Positions 1 to 5,716 of a DNA stretch of 5,716 nt are shown one piece after another; position 1 is the first letter of the stretch; each line of letters begins with the position of its first letter. Source of the stretch: Escherichia coli (lineage in GTDB: Bacteria > Pseudomonadota > Gammaproteobacteria > Enterobacterales > Enterobacteriaceae); NCBI RefSeq assembly GCF_013315695.1, contig NZ_CP054357.1; one strand, 5' to 3'. Below the pieces are notes generated by a model. The model worked only from the letters and a program-made list of their open reading frames with translations. It was not told the DNA's origin and did not search any database. Position numbers and translations under genes: made by a program.

Positions 1-423
1 ACTATCGTCATGGCAATATCTCTTTTCGCGTTATCCTCAACATCCAGCACAGAACAACATTTTCACATTATAAAAATATTCGGTGGAGGCTATTTAATAT
101 ACATAGGATTAATGGGTTTAATTAATAAAAAAAACAAACAAAGAAAAGAGCAAAAACCTTTTTTGATACCATTATTAAACCCCAAGGCGTATCTTTTCTT
201 TGCTGCGTTAATACCAACCTTTATAGATAATAATACAAATATCACATTAAACTTTTTTATATTGGGTGTTTTATTTATATTTATATCATTCCTAACAGAT
301 CTTATTTACATAGCTATTAGCTTAACGATAAGGGATAAATTGACGCCATCATTCTCAAGATACATAAGCATATGTAGTTCCATTTTTATATTAGGTACAG
401 GTATTTATTTTATTTTTACGTGA
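1..423 (+). CDS. LysE/RhtB-family exporter, C-terminal ~140 codons; the frame is open from base 1, so the 5' end lies outside the linear window (it continues from 5567..5716 if the molecule is circular)
   Basis: The frame is open from position 1 (ACT ATC GTC ATG..), so the ATG at 10 is internal. The translation is highly hydrophobic with several predicted TM segments and the motif NPKAYLFFAALIPTFI, matching the conserved NPK..FL.ALFPQF region of RhtB/LysE-type translocators as I recall it. Stop TGA at 421-423. AT-rich codon usage. Confidence 0.75.
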   Translation, partial: TIVMAISLFALSSTSSTEQHFHIIKIFGGGYLIYIGLMGLINKKNKQRKEQKPFLIPLLNPKAYLFFAALIPTFIDNNTNITLNFFILGVLFIFISFLTDLIYIAISLTIRDKLTPSFSRYISICSSIFILGTGIYFIFT

Positions 424-437
424 AACGCCGTTTTTAT

Positions 438-471
438 ACTCATGCAGCCTTAGTCATAAGACGGCATGAGT
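438..471. terminator. Intergenic hairpin between convergent genes (possible weak bidirectional terminator)
   Basis: 8-bp inverted repeat ACTCATGC (438-445) / GCATGAGT (464-471) with an 18-nt loop, in the 57-bp gap between the exporter stop (423) and the stop of the minus-strand 238-aa ORF (481). A short T-run (431-435) lies upstream but there is no strong U-tract after the stem on either strand. Confidence 0.3.
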
Positions 472-480
472 TACTTAACA

Positions 481-1197
481 CTATTTCAGTATGGCATATT
501 TTTTATTTGGTGATTGTTCATTAAAATAATATCCGCTTTCGTCATCAACTAACACGCATGCTTTACGATAATCTCCACACTTCGAGAACTCGGCCAATGG
601 AGCTTTTTCTTTCCATTCTTTTAACATGGATTCATGTTTTTTCTGTTCTTCCATTAGCGAACTAATATTCATTTTGAGATATTCAGCATAGAAAACAGGA
701 GCGATCATTAGCAATAAAAATAATACAATCAACACAATTACCTTTTCGACAATCCTTGTTACTGTATACTTCTCCATTGTTTTTCTAATTATACCTGTCG
801 CAACTTCGGCCTCTCTGGTCGTCTGCTTTAATGATTCCTTTATCTCTTTACTTGTTTGCTCCTCGAAATCAACCCACTCTTTCTTTACATCATTGAGAGT
901 GAAAGATAATTTTTCGCGGAGTAATGACGTTAGTGTATCTGAGACTGATTTCTGTAATTTACAAGATGCCTCATCCATTCCTTTATTAATATAAAATTTA
1001 ACATTAGACACACTATCCCTAAAGGAATAAGAAATTCCAGAAACAACTTTACCTTCACGTTCAAGAGTACTTGTAAAGGTATTTAAGTCATTCACTCTTT
1101 CATTAAGCAGAGTAATTAGCCTGTTCATTTCTTTTATTTGTTTATCATTATACGCAACAAGAGCAGCAATTTTTCTTGAATGTTCATCCAATTGCAT
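481..1197 (-). CDS. Hypothetical membrane protein, 238 aa: N-terminal coiled-coil-like region, one TM helix, small Cys-containing C-terminal domain
   Basis: ORF with a GGAGG Shine-Dalgarno 9 nt upstream of the ATG at 1197, only 20 nt after the mobA stop. The N-terminal ~150 aa are rich in K/E/L/I with heptad-like spacing; one strongly hydrophobic segment (VIVLIVLFLLLMIAPVFYAEYL); the C-terminal ~60 aa contain CGDYRKAC. Clearly more AT-rich than adjacent mobA. I recognise no family. Confidence 0.7.
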   Translation of the reverse strand: MQLDEHSRKIAALVAYNDKQIKEMNRLITLLNERVNDLNTFTSTLEREGKVVSGISYSFRDSVSNVKFYINKGMDEASCKLQKSVSDTLTSLLREKLSFTLNDVKKEWVDFEEQTSKEIKESLKQTTREAEVATGIIRKTMEKYTVTRIVEKVIVLIVLFLLLMIAPVFYAEYLKMNISSLMEEQKKHESMLKEWKEKAPLAEFSKCGDYRKACVLVDDESGYYFNEQSPNKKYAILK

Positions 1198-1217
1198 AAA
1201 ATAAAAACCTCCAGTGC

Positions 1218-2303
1218 TTAACGGCTCATACCATAATCACGTGAACGTGATGGTGCTGGTGAGGAATACGCACGCTGGCGCACTCTTTCTCTTTCCCTCT
1301 CCAGGTCTCTTTGCTTTTCGGCTTCAATTAGTCGTTCCTGTTGCAACTTCCGCTCCTCTTCCACCTGGAATTGCTTCATCATTGAGTCCAGCGCACCGTT
1401 AATCAATGAATTAAGCTGCATTACCTCATTGAGTTCATCAAACGAGCTTTCAACAAACGCCTTCAATTCTGCCCCAAGCTCATCCAGGCTTGGTGGTATG
1501 TTATCCCGTTCAGCTAACGCTTCCTTCAAGGTCGTTTTAAGGTCAATGATGCTGTCCCGTTCCTGCTCTGCTTCTAGCTTCTCCCGTTCCGCGTTTCTCC
1601 GTGCCAGAATTGCACAAACCTGATCAGCATTCATAACAGCAACACGAACGGGACCAAGATGAACTTCCGGTGTGCGCTTGATACCCTGTTCTTTCAGTGA
1701 ACGATGATCAACGCGCGACTGATGGCCGTGCCGCGCAAGGTGTTCATTCTGCACATCAGCCCAGTGAGAACGTAGCGCAACCAAGGCTGATTTTCGCTCT
1801 TGTGGTGTCTCACCAAAGCGTGCCTTTTTTGCACCTCCCCGCTCCGGTGATTTGCTGTTGGCACGTTTAAAAAACTGCTGCGGATCGCGTTCAATACCAT
1901 CATTAATCCGCTCGCAAAACATGATATGTGCGTGTGGTTGTTCCTTTCCGTCGATTGCACCTGGCGGATTGTGGATCGCGTACTGATAGGCATGGCGATC
2001 ACCAAGCTCCTTTTGCACGAAATCTTCAACAAGTTCTATCCGTTGTTCGCGTGTCAGTTCTCGCGGTAATGCGATCTCAATTTCACGGTATGCCGTCCCG
2101 TTTTTTCGTTCAAATTCATCTGCTGCTTTCCATAGCTCTGCGGGATTTTTCTTCGCCCATGATGGCATGTTACCGGATGACGAAAATTCCAGATCCTCCC
2201 GCGATTTGTAGTTCTTATATTCGCCGGATCTAGAAATATAATCAGCATGTTTTAAGGCTACGCCTTTTGCTCCAGTTTTAACTGTACAATGGTAGCTTGC
2301 CAT
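1218..2303 (-). CDS. mobA: MobA relaxase, MOBQ family (RSF1010 MobA-like relaxase domain only, 361 aa)
   Basis: The N-terminus MASYHCTVKTGAKG...HADYISRSGEY parallels RSF1010 MobA (MAIYHLTAKTG...KADYIQREGKY, catalytic Tyr in the ADYI motif). It also carries EIEIALPREL and the histidine motif HAHIMFCERINDGIERDPQQFFKR (RSF1010: HCHLMISERINDGIERPAAQWFKR), then VDHRSLKEQGIKRTPEVHLGP. The C-terminus is ER-rich low complexity. Comparison is from memory of the RSF1010 sequence. Confidence 0.9.
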   Translation of the reverse strand: MASYHCTVKTGAKGVALKHADYISRSGEYKNYKSREDLEFSSSGNMPSWAKKNPAELWKAADEFERKNGTAYREIEIALPRELTREQRIELVEDFVQKELGDRHAYQYAIHNPPGAIDGKEQPHAHIMFCERINDGIERDPQQFFKRANSKSPERGGAKKARFGETPQERKSALVALRSHWADVQNEHLARHGHQSRVDHRSLKEQGIKRTPEVHLGPVRVAVMNADQVCAILARRNAEREKLEAEQERDSIIDLKTTLKEALAERDNIPPSLDELGAELKAFVESSFDELNEVMQLNSLINGALDSMMKQFQVEEERKLQQERLIEAEKQRDLERERERVRQRAYSSPAPSRSRDYGMSR

Positions 2304-2333
2304 CTGCCGTTAAGCCCTCCGCAGGAGCGCACT

Positions 2334-2387
2334 GTTTCTCGACGAAGGAGAGAAACGTCTAAGTGCGCATCCCTGAATTAATCAGGG
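2334..2387 (+). other. oriT: oriT (origin of transfer) with RSF1010-type nic region; predicted nick between 2367 and 2368 on the + strand
   Basis: Inverted repeat GTTTCTC (2334-2340) / GAGAAAC (2350-2356) followed by TAAGTGCGC (2361-2369). RSF1010 oriT, as I recall it, has GTTTCTCGAAGAGAAAC then GGTAAGTGCG^CCCT. A second small palindrome CCCTGA-ATTAA-TCAGGG follows at 2371-2387. It lies between divergent mobA and mobC, as in RSF1010. Confidence 0.7.
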
Positions 2388-2421
2388 ATGATTTTAAGGT
2401 CTCACACGCAGGCAGACAAGG

Positions 2422-2430
2422 TGATATTAT
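2422..2430 (+). promoter_or_regulatory. Putative extended -10 element (TGaTATTAT) for the mobC transcript
   Basis: TG at 2422-2423 followed by TATTAT at 2425-2430, about 45 nt upstream of the mobC start; no good -35 hexamer is seen. Sequence-pattern inference only. Confidence 0.3.
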
Positions 2431-2474
2431 GCACAATAACAACTCACATTAACGGCAAAAGTGCAGAGGTAAGA

Positions 2475-2921
2475 ATGACAAATCGTGAAGAGTGGTTAAG
2501 TGCAAAAATTGCCTATATCAACGGACTGAAATCACCGTCAGAGCAGCAAAGATTACTTGTGTTACTGGCAGAGAAAAAAAACCGAACAACGACGGATGAA
2601 AAAACGTTGTCCGCACTGATACGGGCAGAAAAAACCGCAGAGAAAGCAGCCGCAGCAAAAGCCAGGGTAACGGCAATAATAGCGGCAGAACGGAAGGCAG
2701 CCGCAAGGGCGGAACGAAAGGCGCGGGATCATGAACTCTACAAGGCCGCAGGCCTCATGATTGTGGCAGGACTGGTGGACAGCAAAACCGGAAAACCAAA
2801 GTTTAGTGCTGCCGAACTGGTAGGCGCACTCGCAGGAATCGCAGAGCTACCGCGCAACCATCCAAAATGGCAGGAATGGGAAAAACGCGGGAAAGAGCTA
2901 CTCACCAAAGACAGTGCGTAA
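2475..2921 (+). CDS. mobC: MobC / TraD-like relaxosome accessory protein (148 aa from the ATG at 2475)
   Basis: Divergent from mobA across oriT. SD GAGGT sits 4 nt upstream of the ATG at 2475. An Ala/Lys/Arg/Glu-rich helical region (AEKAAAAKARVTAIIAAERKAAARAERKARDHE) is followed by a hydrophobic stretch (LYKAAGLMIVAGLVD), which resembles the RSF1010 MobC pattern (..ERKNETRRKVLVGAMILAKV..) from memory. The upstream in-frame ATG at 2388 lies inside the oriT palindrome and lacks a convincing SD. Confidence 0.7.
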   Translation: MTNREEWLSAKIAYINGLKSPSEQQRLLVLLAEKKNRTTTDEKTLSALIRAEKTAEKAAAAKARVTAIIAAERKAAARAERKARDHELYKAAGLMIVAGLVDSKTGKPKFSAAELVGALAGIAELPRNHPKWQEWEKRGKELLTKDSA

Positions 2922-2949
2922 GAGCCTCCGTTCACGTTCCGGTTCCCTG

Positions 2950-3003
2950 GTGCTTCCTCGCTCATTCGCTCGCTACGCTCGGTCATTGAGACTGCGGCGA
3001 GCA
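2950..3003. other. ssi / primosome-assembly-site-like element (ColE1 PAS-like)
   Basis: TGCTTCCTCGCTCATTCGCTCGCTACGCTCGGTCATTGAGACTGCGGCGAGC closely resembles the ColE1/pBR322 segment GCTTCCTCGCTCACTGACTCGCTGCGCTCGGTCGTTCGGCTGCGGCGAGC (from memory), which lies in the ColE1 primosome assembly region. Its function here is inferred. Confidence 0.45.
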
Positions 3004-3078
3004 CAACCACCACTCACACACAGACGCTAAAACCATTGCCAAACGAAACACGGGAAATCACCCCAAACCTACCCGCTC

Positions 3079-3097
3079 AAAAAAACGCCTACAGGCG
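3079..3097 (-). terminator. Short hairpin plus T7 run just beyond the ori (possible rep transcript terminator)
   Basis: The minus strand reads CGCCTGTAGGCG followed by TTTTTTT (plus-strand A-run 3079-3085). The stem is only 4 bp, so this is weak. Confidence 0.3.
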
Positions 3098-3130
3098 CTG
3101 TTATCTGATAAGGCTTGTTATCTGGTCTCA
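3090..3130 (-). other. ori: ColE2-type replication origin (Rep binding and priming site) immediately 3' of rep
   Basis: The minus strand reads AAAATGAGACCAGATAACAAGCCTTATCAGATAACAGCGCCTGT, with CAGATAACA repeated. This matches my recollection of the ColE2-P9 minimal origin (TGAGACCAGATAAGCCTTATCAGATAACAGCGCC). The rep stop codon TGA (3128-3130) is the first triplet of this element. Confidence 0.7.
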
Positions 3131-4057
3131 TTTTGCGAGATCTGGATCACATTTTAGTTTTCGATAGTATGTGGCACGACTGATCCCTAACGTCACCCAC
3201 GGCTTCAGAGTTCGTGCCGATGTGGCAACGGCTACACGCTTTGATTTCTGACCTTTAATAGCCTGATTTTCTGATGAATTTGCATTACCGCCCTTACGAC
3301 CTCGAGCAGCCTGTACCGCGGAAAAGCCTTCAGGAGAGAATTTGCGGTAGGTGTATTTCGCAATACTCTTGCCAATAGCCCGACATTCAGCCGGAGAAAG
3401 CGGAACGGGAAGCGATGCGTTGTACATTTCGACACGCTGAATCACTGCATCAAGCCACGGTGAGAATGCTGGCCAGCCCTGACGAATCGCCCTGTAAGAC
3501 CATTTACGGCCCTTTTCGAACAGATACCAGTTTCGCCCCATCCCGTAATCTTTATCGACGCGACGGCGCGCTGAGGCGCTCAAATCAAGATAATCCGCCA
3601 GTTCGTCGAGGGTATAGAGTTCCCAACGCCATTCCACCACCTGCCATTCCTGGTGGAACGGATTTTTGCAGATCAGGCCGCTGTAGTTCACATCCGCGCC
3701 CAGTTTTTCACACAGCGCACGCTCAATCACGGCAGCGTATTTGAGCGCCGAAGCCGATGCATCCGGCGCGGTTCTCACCGGAAGAGTGAGCGCGTAGAGC
3801 AGATGCGCGTGCCCGTTACGTGGATTTTTTACGGTGATGTTCGGGGCCGGACAGTTCCGGTCGCTCCAGTCGATCGCTGCCCCCGTCCGGTCAACGTCAA
3901 AGGCCAGCCAGTGCTGCGCATGTGGCTGGTTCTGCTGGATGAAACGGGCAAGGATGGCGATATCTTTCGGTAGAATGCGAACGCCGTACGTGAAATCGTT
4001 CGTACAGTACGGTTTGTGCGGTAATTTTTCCCTGAAGAGTTGAAGTACGGCGCTCAT
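3128..4057 (-). CDS. rep: ColE2/ColE3-family replication initiator Rep (plasmid-specific primase), 309 aa
   Basis: Translation MSAVLQLFREKLPHKPYCTNDFTYGVRILPKDIAILARFIQQNQPHAQHWLAFDVDRTGAAIDWSDRNCPAPNITVKNPRNGHAHLLYAL... is near-identical over long stretches to ColE2-P9 Rep as I remember it. GGAGG sits 12 nt upstream of the ATG, and the cognate ori-like sequence lies directly downstream. Confidence 0.9.
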   Translation of the reverse strand: MSAVLQLFREKLPHKPYCTNDFTYGVRILPKDIAILARFIQQNQPHAQHWLAFDVDRTGAAIDWSDRNCPAPNITVKNPRNGHAHLLYALTLPVRTAPDASASALKYAAVIERALCEKLGADVNYSGLICKNPFHQEWQVVEWRWELYTLDELADYLDLSASARRRVDKDYGMGRNWYLFEKGRKWSYRAIRQGWPAFSPWLDAVIQRVEMYNASLPVPLSPAECRAIGKSIAKYTYRKFSPEGFSAVQAARGRKGGNANSSENQAIKGQKSKRVAVATSARTLKPWVTLGISRATYYRKLKCDPDLAK

Positions 4058-4155
4058 GTGTTAGGATTTCCTCCGTGTGTTACGACCCACACGCCCCTTG
4101 AATTTTCGTGACAGTCTTGGCGGATCGGCACGAATTTCAGGGGCGTTTGTTTTTC
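4040..4155 (+). ncRNA. Candidate antisense RNA I (copy-number control RNA complementary to the rep mRNA leader); boundaries approximate
   Basis: Plus-strand promoter-like elements TTGAAG (4040-4045), 16-nt spacer, TAGGAT (4062-4067), overlapping the rep start codon. A long imperfect hairpin plus T-run ends at about 4155. ColE2 replicons are known to use an antisense RNA of about 115 nt against the rep leader. With this promoter the transcript would be about 80 nt, so the true 5' end is uncertain. Confidence 0.45.
4094..4155 (+). terminator. Rho-independent terminator-like hairpin plus T-run (3' end of candidate RNA I; same structure in complement forms the rep leader stem-loop)
   Basis: Left arm CCCCTTGAATTTTCGTG (4094-4110), right arm CACGAATTTCAGGGG (4129-4143), imperfect with one or two bulges and an 18-nt loop, followed by CGTTTGTTTTTC (4144-4155). 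Confidence 0.5.
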
Positions 4156-4163
4156 AGTTGGTT

Positions 4164-4192
4164 ACACTACACCCAACGGCAAATCCTGTCGA
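4164..4192 (-). promoter_or_regulatory. Putative rep promoter (minus strand: -35 TCGACA, 17-nt spacer, -10 TAGTGT)
   Basis: Reverse complement of 4187-4192 is TCGACA and of 4164-4169 is TAGTGT, separated by 17 nt. The predicted start near 4157 would give a ~100-nt rep leader fully covered by the candidate RNA I. Pattern-based only. Confidence 0.3.
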
Positions 4193-4213
4193 TCCTTCCC
4201 GAAAACCAGACCC

Positions 4214-4241
4214 ATTTACCATAACTCCTCTTGTACGTACC
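4214..4241 (-). other. XerC/XerD core recombination site (cer/psi-like multimer resolution site)
   Basis: The minus strand reads GGTACGTACAA-GAGGAG-TTATGGTAAAT. The XerD arm is identical to ColE1 cer (TTATGGTAAAT) and the XerC arm differs from cer (GGTGCGTACAA) at one position; the central region is 6 bp, as in dif and psi rather than cer's 8 bp. Accessory sequences would extend to about 4430 on the XerC side. Confidence 0.65.
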
Positions 4242-4342
4242 CTCTAAAACGCTCTCAATCGCTTTCTGACGCAAAAAACTCAAAAAGACAAGATAAACCT
4301 AGGGAAAACACAAAAAACGCGTCAGAATCGTTTTTAGGGGTC

Positions 4343-4356
4343 TGCATAACTATGCA
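4343..4356. promoter_or_regulatory. Perfect palindrome TGCATA-AC-TATGCA: candidate ARG box (ArgR accessory site) for the cer-like site
   Basis: 14-bp perfect palindrome about 120 bp from the XerCD core on the XerC side. It resembles the ARG-box half-sites (TGAAT....ATTCA) with an A-to-C substitution; cer-type sites require ArgR and PepA binding about 100 bp from the core. Confidence 0.35.
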
Positions 4357-4481
4357 CAAAAGCGATTAATGATCGGTTTCACCCCTTCAGAAGCGCGAAC
4401 TGGTCAAAACAGCAAACTTTCTCATCCAGAAAGCCAGCTGAACTAACCCGCATGAAAACAAATTTCCAAACATATCCAGTC

Positions 4482-4508
4482 TGGACAACGAAATATCGAC
4501 AATATAAA
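4482..4508 (+). promoter_or_regulatory. Putative sigma70 promoter for the cargo operon (-35 TGGACA, 15-nt spacer, -10 TATAAA)
   Basis: TGGACA at 4482-4487 and TATAAA at 4503-4508, about 100 nt upstream of the ATG at 4610. The spacer is short; pattern-based only. Confidence 0.3.
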
Positions 4509-4609
4509 ACATCATAATCGTGTTTATGGCGTGTAAAAAAGCTTACAAGAGAATTAGCATTGAAGAGTCATAACAACAAATTCCAAAAATCAAACCAGAG
4601 GATAGGAAA

Positions 4610-5560
4610 ATGAATAATTTTATAAATGAATGTATTTCCGCTCCGAGAATAAACGGCATGGCAGAATTTTTCTCATCAACTGCATCAGGGGAAAAACACA
4701 AACCTTTTAGACTAGTAGAAATAGATGATCGGCTTTTTCATTCTTATGATTACATTAAGTTTGCCAAACACCTCACAAAAAACAGCGGCCCTTTCGTTAA
4801 TCATTATTTTTGCAGTATACCATACAGCAAGGAAGAAGAGTGCAGATTAGGAACAACAGTAATAAAATACGCAATCACGCTAAACAAAAAATTAAACACA
4901 TGGTGTCTTGGTATGGCTGAGGGCGCAATGGCAAGAACCATTTCAGAATTATCAAAAGGAAACATACAAACATTAACAACCAGTCCAACAAAAGAAAATG
5001 AACATGCATTTTTTAAGTATAGCTCAAGTGAAAACGCTTATTTTATTTGCACTCCATTTTTCCTGTTAGAGGAAAGACTAAAAAATTCAAATCTTAAACA
5101 ATTTAATCAAGGATTCGATATTATAATAGAAGACACCACATTTCAAATGTACTCACCTAACAGATCTGGGCAAATAAACCACGTAAAAAGGCTATTAAAT
5201 AATGATGGTATTTTCATATTTACAGAAAAACATAGTTCAGAACATGATGAATATCAAAAAAGAGAAATCCAAAAAGATTATTCATTCAAACAAAGGTATT
5301 TCTCGAAAGATGAGATTAACACCAAAAAGGAAATCGTACTAAACACAATGAATTTGAATGAAGTTAGTGTTGACGATATGCTTTCCGCAATTAAACAACA
5401 TTTTAAATACGCATCAATATATTGGAATAGCGGAAATTTTTACTCAATCGCCGCCAGCAATTCACTAAAACACATATCAACATTTATAAATTTATTACCG
5501 AAAGCTGCAATTCCTATGGAATATGTATATGAAAAGCTCCCACGAAATATATCATGGTAA
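4610..5560 (+). CDS. Hypothetical protein, 316 aa; possible class I SAM-dependent methyltransferase-like Rossmann core (tentative)
   Basis: SD AGAGGA 7 nt upstream of the ATG; AT-rich. The central region has MTase-like motif spacing: LGMAEGAMARTI (glycine-rich, motif I-like), then about 65 aa later FDIIIEDTTF (motif II-like), then VKRLLNNDGIFIFTE (motif III-like). No canonical GxGxG and no (D/N/S)PP(Y/F) DNA-MTase motif. Stop TAA at 5558-5560. Confidence 0.75.
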   Translation: MNNFINECISAPRINGMAEFFSSTASGEKHKPFRLVEIDDRLFHSYDYIKFAKHLTKNSGPFVNHYFCSIPYSKEEECRLGTTVIKYAITLNKKLNTWCLGMAEGAMARTISELSKGNIQTLTTSPTKENEHAFFKYSSSENAYFICTPFFLLEERLKNSNLKQFNQGFDIIIEDTTFQMYSPNRSGQINHVKRLLNNDGIFIFTEKHSSEHDEYQKREIQKDYSFKQRYFSKDEINTKKEIVLNTMNLNEVSVDDMLSAIKQHFKYASIYWNSGNFYSIAASNSLKHISTFINLLPKAAIPMEYVYEKLPRNISW

Positions 5561-5566
5561 GTAAAC

Positions 5567-5716
5567 ATGGAATATTCAACATTATTATCATTTGCTATCG
5601 TAACCTTATCGCAAACTATATCAATAGGGCCTGGCGTTGCATTGGTTATAAACAATGCCTTTTCACATGGATTAAAGTCATCAATAAAAACAAGTATATA
5701 CATAAGAATTGGCGAG
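5567..5716 (+). CDS. LysE/RhtB-family exporter, N-terminal 50 codons; 3' end runs off the window (continues at 1..423 if circular)
   Basis: ATG at 5567, 6 nt after the stop of the 316-aa gene. MEYSTLLSFAIVTLSQTISIGPGVALVINNAFSHGLKSSIKTSIYIRIGE has the hydrophobic N-terminus and S-x-GPG motif typical of LysE/RhtB translocators (RhtB: ..[20 protein letters not shown]..). There is no stop before the window end, and the window ends exactly on a codon boundary. Confidence 0.75.
   Translation, partial: MEYSTLLSFAIVTLSQTISIGPGVALVINNAFSHGLKSSIKTSIYIRIGE

What the first reader, a model, noticed from the sequence alone, without database searches (positions are those of the whole stretch)
4480..5716. 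About 2.4 kb AT-rich cargo island in a balanced-GC ColE2/MOBQ backbone
Base composition shifts sharply from about half G+C in the backbone (rep, mobA, mobC) to roughly one-third G+C (by eye, not computed) across about 4480..5716 and 1..1200. That interval holds exactly the three uncharacterised genes, indicating recent acquisition from a low-GC donor. The boundaries fall next to the cer-like site on one side and directly at the mobA stop on the other.
Basis: seen in the sequence. Interest (0 to 1): 0.65.

Follow-up and report, generated by a model that had tools for sequence, protein, structure and literature searches.

The report
AT-rich block: cargo operon plus mob gene
The low-GC third of this small E. 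coli/Salmonella plasmid is real, but it is two long-resident units sitting side by side rather than one recently acquired island: a two-gene enzyme-plus-exporter cargo operon of unknown product, and a membrane protein gene that belongs to the plasmid's own mobilisation operon.

Summary
The window is a complete 5716-bp circular ColE2-Rep/MOBQ plasmid. The composition shift is real: 4451..5716+1..1210 has 31.9% G+C against 50.2% for the rest (LLR 97.9; GC3 0.27-0.29 against 0.43-0.56).

The reading "one recently acquired three-gene island from a low-GC donor" holds only in part.

- **orf238 (481..1197, -) is backbone.** It is the last gene of the mobA operon. All four distant relatives found lie 2-21 nt after, or overlap, a short MobA. 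Two of those plasmids were checked and lack the other two genes.
- **orf316 plus lysE (4610..423, +) is the true cargo.** It is a two-gene cassette also found in an E. coli ICE, a K. oxytoca plasmid, Citrobacter and the Pectobacterium chromosome. It has 32-42% G+C in every copy.
- **The block is old.** Synonymous divergence of its genes between two plasmid lineages (0.19-0.32) matches mobA (0.20), with dN/dS 0.09-0.23.
- **No low-GC donor was found.**

orf316 is a CmoA-like class I methyltransferase-fold enzyme but not CmoA. Across taxa its family sits next to, or is fused with, LysE, MFS or EamA transporters. It probably makes or modifies an exported small metabolite. The phenomenon is ordinary; the two gene families are uncharacterised.

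The parts
4451..5716 (.). AT-rich block, first part (continues at 1..1210 across the origin of the circular plasmid)
   Evidence: Best circular two-segment partition gives 31.9% against 50.2% G+C, LLR 97.9. Sliding-window profile.
1..1210 (.). AT-rich block, second part
4214..4241 (-). cer-like XerC/XerD core site: GGTACGTACAA-GAGGAG-TTATGGTAAAT
   Evidence: One mismatch to the ColE1 cer arms with a 6-nt spacer (the cer sequence is from my own knowledge). None of 200 shuffles gave a match. It is the exact left junction of the copy integrated in the 102-kb IncF plasmid NZ_CP146684.
4242..4432 (-). Presumed cer accessory region of about 190 bp, with an ARG-box-like palindrome TGCATAACTATGCA at about 4343-4356. 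This is where backbone homology ends.
   Evidence: Homology with the Col156 3.9-kb plasmid and with the 4585-bp relative both stop at 4432. The function is inferred from the known layout of cer and was not tested.
4433..4609 (+). Upstream region of the cargo operon, where a promoter is presumed
   Evidence: Not shared with plasmids that lack the cargo. The consensus scan found no sigma-70 match on the + strand here.
4610..5560 (+). orf316: CmoA-like class I methyltransferase-fold enzyme of an uncharacterised family
5567..5716 (+). lysE, 5' part: LysE/RhtB-family exporter of 190 aa, starting 6 nt after the orf316 stop
   Evidence: TIGR00949 E = 1.3e-17. RefSeq name. The pairing with orf316 homologues is conserved.
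1..423 (+). lysE, 3' part
438..471 (.). 15-nt-arm hairpin between the convergent lysE and orf238 genes, a likely two-way terminator
   Evidence: Inverted repeat I16. Homology with the LysE-only plasmid NZ_CP100506 ends in its loop.
481..1197 (-). orf238: single-pass membrane protein and last gene of the mobA operon. It has an N-terminal helical region, a transmembrane segment at aa 153-171, and a conserved C-terminal W..KAPxA....CG.....C motif.
   Evidence: Relatives always follow a short MobA. Alignment A4. Hydropathy. dN/dS 0.23. No Pfam, NCBIfam, PADLOC or PHROG family.
1218..2303 (-). Short MobA (361 aa, MOBQ relaxase). Codons 242-361 (1218..1580) are the C-terminal variant that always comes with orf238.
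   Evidence: NCBIfam MobQ E = 8e-29. 90% identity to the Col156 long MobA over aa 1-241 only. The variant co-occurs with orf238 in 31 of 31 records.
2334..2368 (+). oriT core: inverted repeat GTTTCTC-N9-GAGAAAC followed by TAAGTGCGC, of the R1162/RSF1010 type
   Evidence: Unique match; none in shuffles. The resemblance to R1162 oriT is from my own knowledge. The first difference from the 5682-bp sister plasmid is at 2377.

Best explanation
The 2.4-kb AT-rich block is a real compositional feature, but it is made of two adjacent units with separate histories. Both were already present in the common ancestor of the known plasmid lineages.

**Unit 1, cargo.** This covers about 4433..5716+1..480. 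It is a two-gene operon, orf316 then lysE, sitting in the variable slot between the end of cer and the end of the mob operon. The same cassette travels on other Enterobacterales mobile elements and is AT-rich wherever it is found. orf316 is an enzyme with a CmoA-like class I methyltransferase fold. LysE is a small amino-acid-type efflux protein. I infer that the enzyme makes or modifies a small, probably amino-acid-like metabolite, likely using S-adenosylmethionine, and that LysE exports it. My preferred but unproven reading is a secreted metabolite that benefits the plasmid host, for example an antimetabolite, with export doubling as self-protection.

**Unit 2, backbone.** orf238 (481..1197) is the distal gene of the mobA operon. 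It is a single-pass inner-membrane protein that always accompanies short (327-364 aa) MobA relaxases. I infer that it acts as a mobilisation accessory protein, analogous to MobB, or as an exclusion protein. Its low G+C is a trait of the gene family.

The whole stretch from cer through cargo, orf238 and mobA to oriT is exchanged as a block between different rep/traD modules. The junctions lie at cer and just past the oriT nick region.
For: **Shown: composition.**

**Shown: orf238 belongs to the mob operon.**
- Every relative found in 1.84 billion representative proteins lies 2-21 nt after, or overlaps, a MobA_MobL gene in small Replicase/TraD plasmids: P0137 (47%), P0142 (34%), P0143 (28%) and P0146 (34%).
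- The 4585-bp plasmid L022 has mobA364 and orf240 but no trace of orf316 or lysE by tblastn.
- L106 carries a ParE toxin gene at that position.
- orf238-like genes have lower G+C than their mobA partner in 5 of 5 plasmids.
- The mobA C-terminal variant is never found without orf238 in PLSDB.

**Shown: the cassette is a unit.**
- The enzyme+LysE pair is found in a K. oxytoca plasmid (55% and 34% aa identity), the Pectobacterium chromosome, Citrobacter, a metagenomic plasmid-like contig, an E. coli chromosomal ICE (about 70% nt identity over the two coding regions only) and Streptococcus equinus.
- Cassette G+C is 32-42% against flanks of 50-55% in four of these contexts. In Citrobacter the flanks are 36% as well.

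**Shown: the block is old.** dS is 0.19, 0.32 and 0.24 for orf316, lysE and orf238, against 0.20 for mobA. dN/dS is 0.09-0.23.

**Shown: module exchange.** The 5682-bp plasmid differs at 3 positions over 4342 through the origin to 2376, but at 214 alignment columns over 2377..4341. The IncF cointegrate junction lies in the cer core.

**Shown: link to exporters.** Of 80 species-representative loci, 54 have both a divergent AraC regulator and an MFS transporter, 2 have an MFS transporter downstream and 6 have LysE downstream. In Chromera velia an EamA transporter domain is fused to the enzyme domain.

**Inferred:** the chemistry, the exported product, the role of orf238, and the recombination mechanisms at cer and oriT.
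Against: - No product, substrate or phenotype is known for any member of the orf316 family. No paper was found.
- The acidic ribose-binding residue of class I methyltransferases (CmoA Asp89) is Thr/Ser in this family, so even SAM binding is unproven.
- The cassette could detoxify an incoming compound rather than synthesise one.
- orf238 has no detectable similarity to any known Mob or exclusion protein, and its structure model is poor (pLDDT 57).
- The NJ tree has no bootstrap support.
- Only two diverged lineages were available for the dS comparison. Recombination is frequent in this family, so equal dS does not strictly prove co-inheritance.
- A low-GC donor that is not in the databases cannot be excluded.
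Confidence: 0.7

Rival explanations
1. One reading: all three genes arrived together, recently, as one island from a low-GC donor. It inserted between cer and the mobA stop of an otherwise balanced ColE2/MOBQ backbone.
For: There is one contiguous AT-rich block with sharp edges. Codon usage of orf238 and of the cassette is fairly similar (r = 0.64). The Col156 3.9-kb plasmids lack all three genes.
Against: - orf238 homologues follow short MobA genes in plasmids without the cassette.
- The cassette occurs without orf238 on another replicon, in an ICE and in other genera.
- dS of the block equals that of mobA between lineages.
- No flanking repeats, integrase or IS element were found.
- The Col156 plasmids differ by a replacement that starts inside mobA at 1581, not at the G+C edge.
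- The closest orf316 relatives are in Enterobacterales, while the low-GC taxa are the most distant.
Confidence: 0.07
2. The low G+C says nothing about origin. It reflects a bias proper to these genes, from the mutational or selective AT-richness of mobile accessory genes and from membrane or coiled-coil amino-acid composition. On this view the block is simply native plasmid DNA.
For: The cassette keeps about 32% G+C in three lineages that are only 55-70% identical in protein. orf238-like genes are more AT-rich than mobA in 5 of 5 plasmids. The block's proteins are rich in F/L/I/M/N/K/Y (48% against 32% in the backbone).
Against: GC3 is as low as overall G+C, so amino-acid composition alone does not explain it. 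Rhizobial homologues have 51% G+C, so the family is not intrinsically AT-rich. The cassette clearly moves between replicons. This rival overlaps with the best explanation regarding persistence, but not regarding the cargo status of the cassette.
Confidence: 0.15
3. The cassette is a resistance or detoxification module rather than a biosynthetic one. orf316 methylates an incoming toxic compound, or a toxic endogenous metabolite, and LysE pumps out the product.
Against: No known resistance family matches. In S. equinus the pair sits next to a DltA-like adenylating enzyme and a GNAT acetyltransferase, which looks more like a small biosynthetic locus. Neither reading has been tested.
Confidence: 0.25
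4. orf238 is an entry-exclusion or other surface function carried at the end of the mob operon, as exc/mbeD is in ColE1. On this view it is not a relaxosome or coupling accessory protein.
For: The best-conserved part is the roughly 65-aa tail after the transmembrane segment, with two invariant cysteines. The tail is probably periplasmic, judged by eye from the positive charges before the transmembrane segment. The gene is last in the operon.
Against: There is no similarity to known exclusion proteins. Strict coupling to the short form of MobA (327-364 aa, against 516 aa in plasmids without it) suggests that it compensates for the missing MobA C-terminal domain.
Confidence: 0.3

Closest known systems
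Col156/ColE2-type small mobilisable plasmids (ColE2-family Rep, MOBQ relaxase, TraD-like protein, cer)
   Same: Rep matches PF03090 Replicase with E = 8.6e-42. MobA aa 1-241 are 90% identical to the Col156 plasmid p931-3904 MobA. The traD-like gene, the rep-proximal region and cer are shared at 82-93%. MOB-suite typing is MOBQ.
   Different: Col156 3.9-kb plasmids have a 516-aa MobA whose stop lies about 80 bp from cer, and no cargo. Here the last 275 codons are replaced by a different 120-codon C-terminus plus orf238 plus the orf316-lysE operon. The replaced segment is 4433..1581, 2865 bp against 911 bp.
CmoA (carboxy-S-adenosylmethionine synthase; PDB 4GEK, 4IWN, 1IM8)
   Different: Arg199, which binds the carboxymethyl group and defines the CmoA family (PMC3663124), aligns with a non-conserved position (Lys240 here). 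Asp89 becomes Thr/Ser. The TIGR00740 score is 26 bits against a cut-off of 193. The protein has an extra N-terminal helical region of about 94 residues and is linked to exporters, not to cmoB or tRNA genes.
Amino-acid antimetabolite clusters with a LysE-family exporter, such as 3-methylarginine mrsABC of Pseudomonas syringae and the gvg cluster for 4-formylaminooxyvinylglycine
   Same: [quoted passage not shown] 2010. The gene content of mrsABC is from my own knowledge, because that paper could not be opened.
RSF1010/R1162 mobilisation system (MobA, MobB, MobC, oriT)
   Same: The oriT has the inverted repeat plus TAAGTGCGC core (comparison from my own knowledge). The relaxase is MOBQ. A small accessory gene is tied to mobA. 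Site-specific recombination at oriT is known for R1162 (own knowledge) and would fit the junction at 2377.
   Different: orf238 lies downstream of mobA, not nested within it. It has a transmembrane segment and a Cys-containing C-terminal tail. It has no detectable similarity to MobB or to any family.
ColE1 cer / XerCD multimer-resolution site
   Same: Both 11-nt arms match with one mismatch. About 190 bp of conserved sequence lies on the XerC side. A cointegrate junction falls exactly in the core.
   Different: The spacer is 6 nt, as in dif and psi, rather than the 8 nt of ColE1 cer (own knowledge). ArgR and PepA binding were not tested.

Membership tests
Recently acquired genomic island (horizontal transfer from a compositionally different donor) | Composition and codon usage deviate from the rest of the replicon | tested here: met
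   31.9% against 50.2% G+C, LLR 97.9. GC3 is 0.27-0.29 against 0.43-0.56. RSCU correlation with the backbone is r = -0.2 to 0.25.
Recently acquired genomic island (horizontal transfer from a compositionally different donor) | Absent from close relatives that keep both flanks (an empty site) | tested here: inconclusive
   Met for orf316-lysE: the 4585-bp plasmid L022 keeps mobA, an orf238 homologue and cer but lacks the cassette. Not met for orf238, which is present in every relative that has the short mobA.
Recently acquired genomic island (horizontal transfer from a compositionally different donor) | Recency: less diverged between lineages than the backbone, or near-identical to a donor | tested here: not met
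   dS is 0.19-0.32 for the block against 0.20 for mobA between the 5716-bp and 5728-bp lineages. The best non-plasmid relative is 70% identical in protein (E. coli ICE).
Recently acquired genomic island (horizontal transfer from a compositionally different donor) | Mobility signatures at the edges (direct repeats, integrase, IS element, tRNA) | tested here: not met
   Only chance-level short repeats were found. There is no integrase or transposase ORF. The edges are cer and the mob operon.
CmoA (carboxy-SAM synthase) | Arg199 salt bridge to the carboxymethyl group, conserved across the CmoA family (PMC3663124) | tested here: not met
   hhalign places Arg199 opposite position 240, which is Lys in this protein and variable in the 42-sequence family alignment.
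CmoA (carboxy-SAM synthase) | Score above the curated family threshold | tested here: not met
   TIGR00740 scores 26.1 bits against a cut-off of 193.3. NF011995 scores 18 against 285.
Class I SAM-dependent methyltransferase fold | Rossmann-like seven-strand fold with a glycine-rich loop after strand 1 | tested here: met
Class I SAM-dependent methyltransferase fold | Acidic residue at the end of strand 2 that binds the ribose hydroxyls (CmoA Asp89) | tested here: not met
   It aligns with Thr123 here and Ser in the family consensus. SAM binding is therefore unproven.
LysE/RhtB exporter superfamily | Significant match to LysE-family profiles over the full length of about 200 aa | tested here: met
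   TIGR00949 E = 1.3e-17 over residues 21-185, and LeuE E = 5e-14, both below the equivalog cut-offs. Homologous partners carry PF01810.
Mobilisation-operon accessory protein (MobB-like role) | Conserved position directly downstream of, and co-oriented with, the relaxase gene | tested here: met
   True in 5 of 5 independent plasmid contexts, with gaps of -13 to +21 nt.
Mobilisation-operon accessory protein (MobB-like role) | Sequence or fold similarity to a known Mob accessory protein, or a demonstrated effect on transfer | tested here: not met
   No family match was found, and the model is poor. An effect on transfer cannot be tested with these tools.
cer-type XerCD site | XerC and XerD 11-nt arms separated by 6-8 nt | tested here: met
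   4214..4241 (-) has one mismatch, with 0 matches in 200 shuffles.
ColE2-type replicon | Rep protein of the PF03090 Replicase family | tested here: met
   E = 8.6e-42 over residues 31-156.

The most novel reading that the evidence does not exclude
The orf316-lysE cassette is a minimal, self-contained "make and export" system for an unknown small metabolite derived from SAM or from an amino acid. Small Col-type plasmids, ICEs and large plasmids carry it as a small-molecule counterpart of a colicin (an allelopathic antimetabolite) or as a signal. orf316 would then found a new enzyme family, spread across Enterobacterales, Rhizobiales, streptococci, cyanobacteria and some eukaryotes, whose members are almost always encoded beside, or fused to, an efflux transporter.
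Probability: 0.2. Interest if true: 0.7.

Novelty: new member of a known kind. Interest (0 to 1): 0.35.

Why it matters
For the finding as written, the result is mostly a correction. A sharp G+C step in a small plasmid is not enough to call one recent island. Here it spans a backbone mob gene plus a long-resident cargo operon, and the real module borders (cer, oriT, a point inside mobA) do not coincide with the compositional ones.

Two side products may be worth following up.
- An uncharacterised enzyme family with a CmoA-like fold is tied to three unrelated exporter families across distant taxa, and it rides on mobile elements in enteric bacteria. It occurs in 36 of 5426 complete E. coli genomes.
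- An uncharacterised membrane protein family accompanies short MOBQ relaxases in every context found. It could explain how these truncated relaxases are mobilised.

Tried and rejected
- **Rfam scan of the whole plasmid.** Nothing above chance; one hit with E = 0.95.
- **PADLOC and PHROGs scans of the three proteins.** Nothing useful for orf238. PHROGs gave only a "tRNA methyltransferase" family for orf316 (E = 7e-11) and a family of unknown function for LysE. PADLOC gave only marginal hits.
- **Pfam on orf238.** Only noise.
- **Is orf238 the detached C-terminal domain of the long Col156 MobA?** No similarity.
- **Is the 238-aa HNH gene next to the K. oxytoca cassette, or the 240-aa gene in L017, an orf238 homologue?** No. 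The equal length is a coincidence.
- **Structure prediction of orf238.** pLDDT was 57, so no fold search was run on it.
- **Flanking direct or inverted repeats around the cassette.** Only short, chance-level matches.
- **Promoter scan upstream of orf316.** No consensus match.
- **Literature.** Nothing was found on these proteins, on a Col156 plus LysE cargo, or on CmoA-like exporter-linked enzymes. The 3-methylarginine paper could not be opened, and one search was wasted on "mrsA" matching MRSA.
- **Tetranucleotide comparison with donor taxa.** Not attempted. The units are 0.7-1.5 kb, too short for stable signatures, and no candidate donor emerged. Codon usage was compared instead.
- **Is the 179-aa gene after the rhizobial homologue a divergent LysE?** No.
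Full report
**What the window is.** The 5716 bases are a complete circular plasmid. They are 100% identical over their full length to NZ_CP082933.1 (Salmonella London), CP056318.1 and NZ_CP124378.1 (E. coli), among others. The plasmid carries six genes:

| Gene | Coordinates | Strand | Notes |
|---|---|---|---|
| orf316 | 4610..5560 | + | |
| lysE | 5567..5716 + 1..423 | + | LysE-family gene; wraps the origin, so the window shows only part of it |
| orf238 | 481..1197 | - | |
| mobA | 1218..2303 | - | 361 aa |
| traD-like | 2475..2921 | + | |
| rep | 3128..4057 | - | |

Rep matches PF03090 Replicase with E = 8.6e-42. MobA matches the MobQ relaxase model with E = 8e-29. "ColE2-type Rep / MOBQ backbone" is therefore correct.

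**Checking the observation.** The stated interval has 32.0% G+C and the rest has 50.0%. A circular two-segment likelihood scan places the edges at 4451 and 1210, giving 31.9% against 50.2%. The log-likelihood gain is 97.9, which corresponds to p of about 3e-42. Third codon positions show the same step. GC3 is 0.27, 0.27 and 0.29 for the three genes in the block. It is 0.43, 0.46 and 0.56 for mobA, traD-like and rep. A Fisher test gives p = 2e-17. Codon usage of the block genes does not correlate with that of the backbone genes (r = -0.20 to 0.25).

**The edges.** A cer-like XerC/XerD core lies at 4214..4241 on the minus strand. It has one mismatch to the ColE1 arms and a 6-nt spacer, and no match appeared in 200 shuffles. 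Homology with plasmids that lack the cargo runs on for about 190 bp on the XerC side and stops at 4432. That is the expected size of the cer accessory region (own knowledge), and the G+C step follows about 20 bp later. At the other edge the step falls in the 20 nt between the mobA stop (1218) and the orf238 start (1197). That spacer contains GGAGG 9 nt before the ATG (sequence shown). "Directly at the mobA stop" is therefore true, but it is an intra-operon junction and not an insertion scar.

**orf238 is backbone, not cargo.**
- A word-indexed search of 5.8 billion proteins found only copies at least 88% identical, from the same enterobacterial plasmids.
- A full HMMER scan of 1.84 billion representatives found four real relatives: P0137 (47%), P0142 (34%), P0143 (28%) and P0146 (34%).
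- All four lie immediately after, or overlap, a short MobA_MobL gene of 327-364 aa. Where the contig is long enough, the plasmid also has a PF03090 Rep and a TraD-like gene.
- One of these plasmids (4585 bp, L021/L022) shares mobA at the DNA level with the window. Its orf240 is followed by 595 bp of unrelated sequence and then cer, with no trace of orf316 or lysE by tblastn.
- Another (5167 bp, L106) carries a ParE toxin gene at that position.
- In PLSDB the mobA C-terminal variant (1218..1580) occurs in 31 records, all belonging to this plasmid family and none lacking orf238.
- The orf238-like gene has lower G+C than its mobA partner in all five plasmids, so low G+C is a trait of this gene family.
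- The proteins share one transmembrane segment (aa 153-171 here). They also share a conserved tail carrying W195, K198-A199-P200, A202, C207-G208 and C214.
- No known family matches, and the structure model is too poor to use.

I infer a mobilisation accessory role, or alternatively exclusion. Neither has been tested.

**orf316-lysE is the real cargo, and it is a travelling two-gene cassette.** The lysE start lies 6 nt after the orf316 stop. The same pair, in the same order, occurs in the following places:

| Context | Evidence |
|---|---|
| 78-kb K. oxytoca plasmid (55% and 34% aa identity) | |
| Pectobacterium chromosome, between an ABC transporter operon and gcvTHP | |
| Citrobacter werkmanii | |
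| Plasmid-like metagenome contig | |
| E. coli chromosomal integrative conjugative element; about 70% nt identity, limited to the two coding regions | |
| Streptococcus equinus (42% and 24% aa identity) | |

In total, 36 of 5426 complete E. coli genomes carry the cassette, eight of them on the chromosome. The cassette is AT-rich wherever it sits in Enterobacterales. It has 32-33% G+C in 55% flanks in Pectobacterium, 31-32% in 50% flanks in the E. coli ICE, and 39-42% in 50-52% flanks in K. oxytoca and the metagenome contig. In Citrobacter the flanks are AT-rich too. Deletion derivatives exist. A 4959-bp plasmid lacks 4507..5414. A plasmid with a different replicon keeps only 4382..4656 plus 5516..457, that is lysE without orf238.

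**Age.** Between the 5716-bp lineage and the 5728-bp lineage (NZ_AP027798), dS is 0.19 for orf316, 0.32 for lysE and 0.24 for orf238. It is 0.20 for mobA. dN/dS is 0.09-0.23 and G+C is unchanged. The block was therefore already there when these lineages split, and all three genes are under purifying selection. "Recent" is not supported.

**Donor.** The family has 184 hits in the word-indexed search. It has 133 confirmed loci among GTDB species representatives, mostly Rhizobiales. There are also two Pectobacterium species, a Burkholderia, a Chlorobium MAG, an alphaproteobacterial MAG and S. equinus. In a neighbour-joining tree without bootstrap, the plasmid copy groups first with the E. coli ICE copy (70%). 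It then groups with the other Enterobacterales copies (54-55%). That clade is sister to the Rhizobiales and Burkholderia. The three low-GC organisms are the most distant, at 40-41% in the trimmed alignment. No low-GC donor can be named from available data.

**Mosaic structure.** Compared with Col156 3.9-kb plasmids, homology breaks at 4432 and at 1581, inside mobA. The relaxase domain (aa 1-241) is 90% identical, while the C-terminus is unrelated. Compared with a 5682-bp sister plasmid, there are only 3 differences across 4342 through the origin to 2376. This stretch covers part of cer, the cargo, orf238 and mobA. Across 2377..4341, covering traD-like, rep, the origin region and the cer core, there are 214 differing alignment columns. 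The junction at 2377 lies just past an R1162-type oriT core at 2334..2368 (the comparison is from my own knowledge). The other junction lies in the cer accessory region. A 102-kb IncF plasmid holds 4214..5716+1..1505 at 99.9% identity, with its left junction inside the cer core. Modules are therefore exchanged at cer and near oriT, and the compositional edges are not the recombination edges.

**What the cassette may do.**
- The orf316 model is confident (pLDDT 93.7).
- A profile-profile comparison aligns residues 95-284 with CmoA residues 58-242 (probability 89.6%).
It was validated at 12 of 12 numbered residues against PMC3663124.
- The family-defining Arg199 and the ribose-binding Asp89 of CmoA are not conserved, and the curated CmoA models score far below threshold. 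orf316 is therefore CmoA-like in fold but is not CmoA.
- Among the 80 species-representative loci, 54 have both a divergent AraC regulator and an MFS transporter, 2 have an MFS transporter downstream and 6 have LysE downstream.
- In Chromera velia the enzyme domain is fused to an EamA transporter domain.
- An enzyme tied to three unrelated efflux families points to a small product that leaves the cell. LysE-family exporters are a recurring part of amino-acid antimetabolite clusters (bioRxiv 10.1101/080572).
- A GNAT acetyltransferase lies close to the pair in S. equinus and Citrobacter, and close to the enzyme gene (which has no LysE partner there) in one metagenome plasmid. A DltA-like adenylating enzyme also lies nearby in S. 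equinus.

I therefore favour "make or modify, then export". The chemistry is unknown, and detoxification is a live rival.

**Verdict.** The composition step is real and highly significant. The block is a cargo operon plus a backbone mob gene, both old in this plasmid family, with no identifiable low-GC donor. The phenomenon, a mosaic small plasmid with AT-rich accessory DNA, is ordinary. The two gene families are uncharacterised and moderately interesting.

Noticed in passing
window 2334..2368 and 2377; 4341: An R1162/RSF1010-type oriT core (inverted repeat plus TAAGTGCGC) sits at 2334..2368. The sister 5682-bp plasmid is almost identical on the mobA side and starts to differ at 2377, just past the expected nick. 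The other junction, at about 4341, lies beside an ARG-box-like palindrome in the cer accessory region. This suggests that whole mob-plus-cargo modules are swapped between rep modules at oriT and cer.
   Followed up: partly
window 3001..3284: Differences from the 5682-bp sister plasmid pile up here, with 119 differing alignment columns in 400 bp and an indel of about 30 bp. The stretch covers the Rep C-terminus and the region just downstream of rep, where a ColE2-type origin is expected. It looks like a co-varying Rep/origin specificity module.
   Followed up: no
window 438..471: A hairpin with 15-nt arms lies between the convergent lysE and orf238 genes. Homology with the LysE-only plasmid NZ_CP100506 (a different replicon) ends in its loop.
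   Followed up: partly
L002 (NZ_CP146684, 102-kb IncF plasmid) 8001..11008: A 3.0-kb piece of this plasmid (window 4214..1505) is integrated next to a ColE1-like colicin/immunity/lysis/Exc2 block. The left junction is in the cer core, which has a hybrid spacer (TCCCTT against CTCCTC). The right junction is inside mobA, leaving an 82-aa remnant ORF.
   Followed up: partly
AFDB A0A0G4HCU9 (Chromera velia): An 863-aa eukaryotic protein annotated as EamA domain-containing holds a full orf316-like domain (TM-score 0.97). This looks like a fusion of the enzyme with a drug/metabolite exporter. Fungal (Penicillium) homologues also exist at 40-41% identity.
   Followed up: no
L098 (Streptococcus equinus Sb05) 1369..5191: The orf316-like gene and a LysE gene lie beside a DltA-like amino-acid adenylating enzyme and a RimL-like GNAT acetyltransferase, all in 25-33% G+C DNA. 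This may be a small biosynthetic locus. A GNAT gene also sits directly upstream of the pair in Citrobacter (L012 5260..5796).
   Followed up: partly
L009, L105 (Rhizobium/Agrobacterium, including Ti plasmid pTiL51_94) and 54 of 80 species-representative loci: In Rhizobiales the enzyme gene is preceded by a divergent AraC-family regulator and an MFS transporter in a strongly conserved three-gene arrangement, often on plasmids. No function has been reported.
   Followed up: partly
L104 (E. coli STEC2018-553 chromosome) 8994..10530: A second E. coli version of the cassette (70% aa identity, 32% G+C) is cargo of an integrative conjugative element with TIGR03756/03757-type genes, ArdC and an integrase. 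Eight complete E. coli genomes carry it.
   Followed up: partly
window 4465..4485 (-): A terminator-like hairpin followed by a T-run sits on the minus strand at the start of the AT-rich block, pointing towards cer. Its role is unknown.
   Followed up: no
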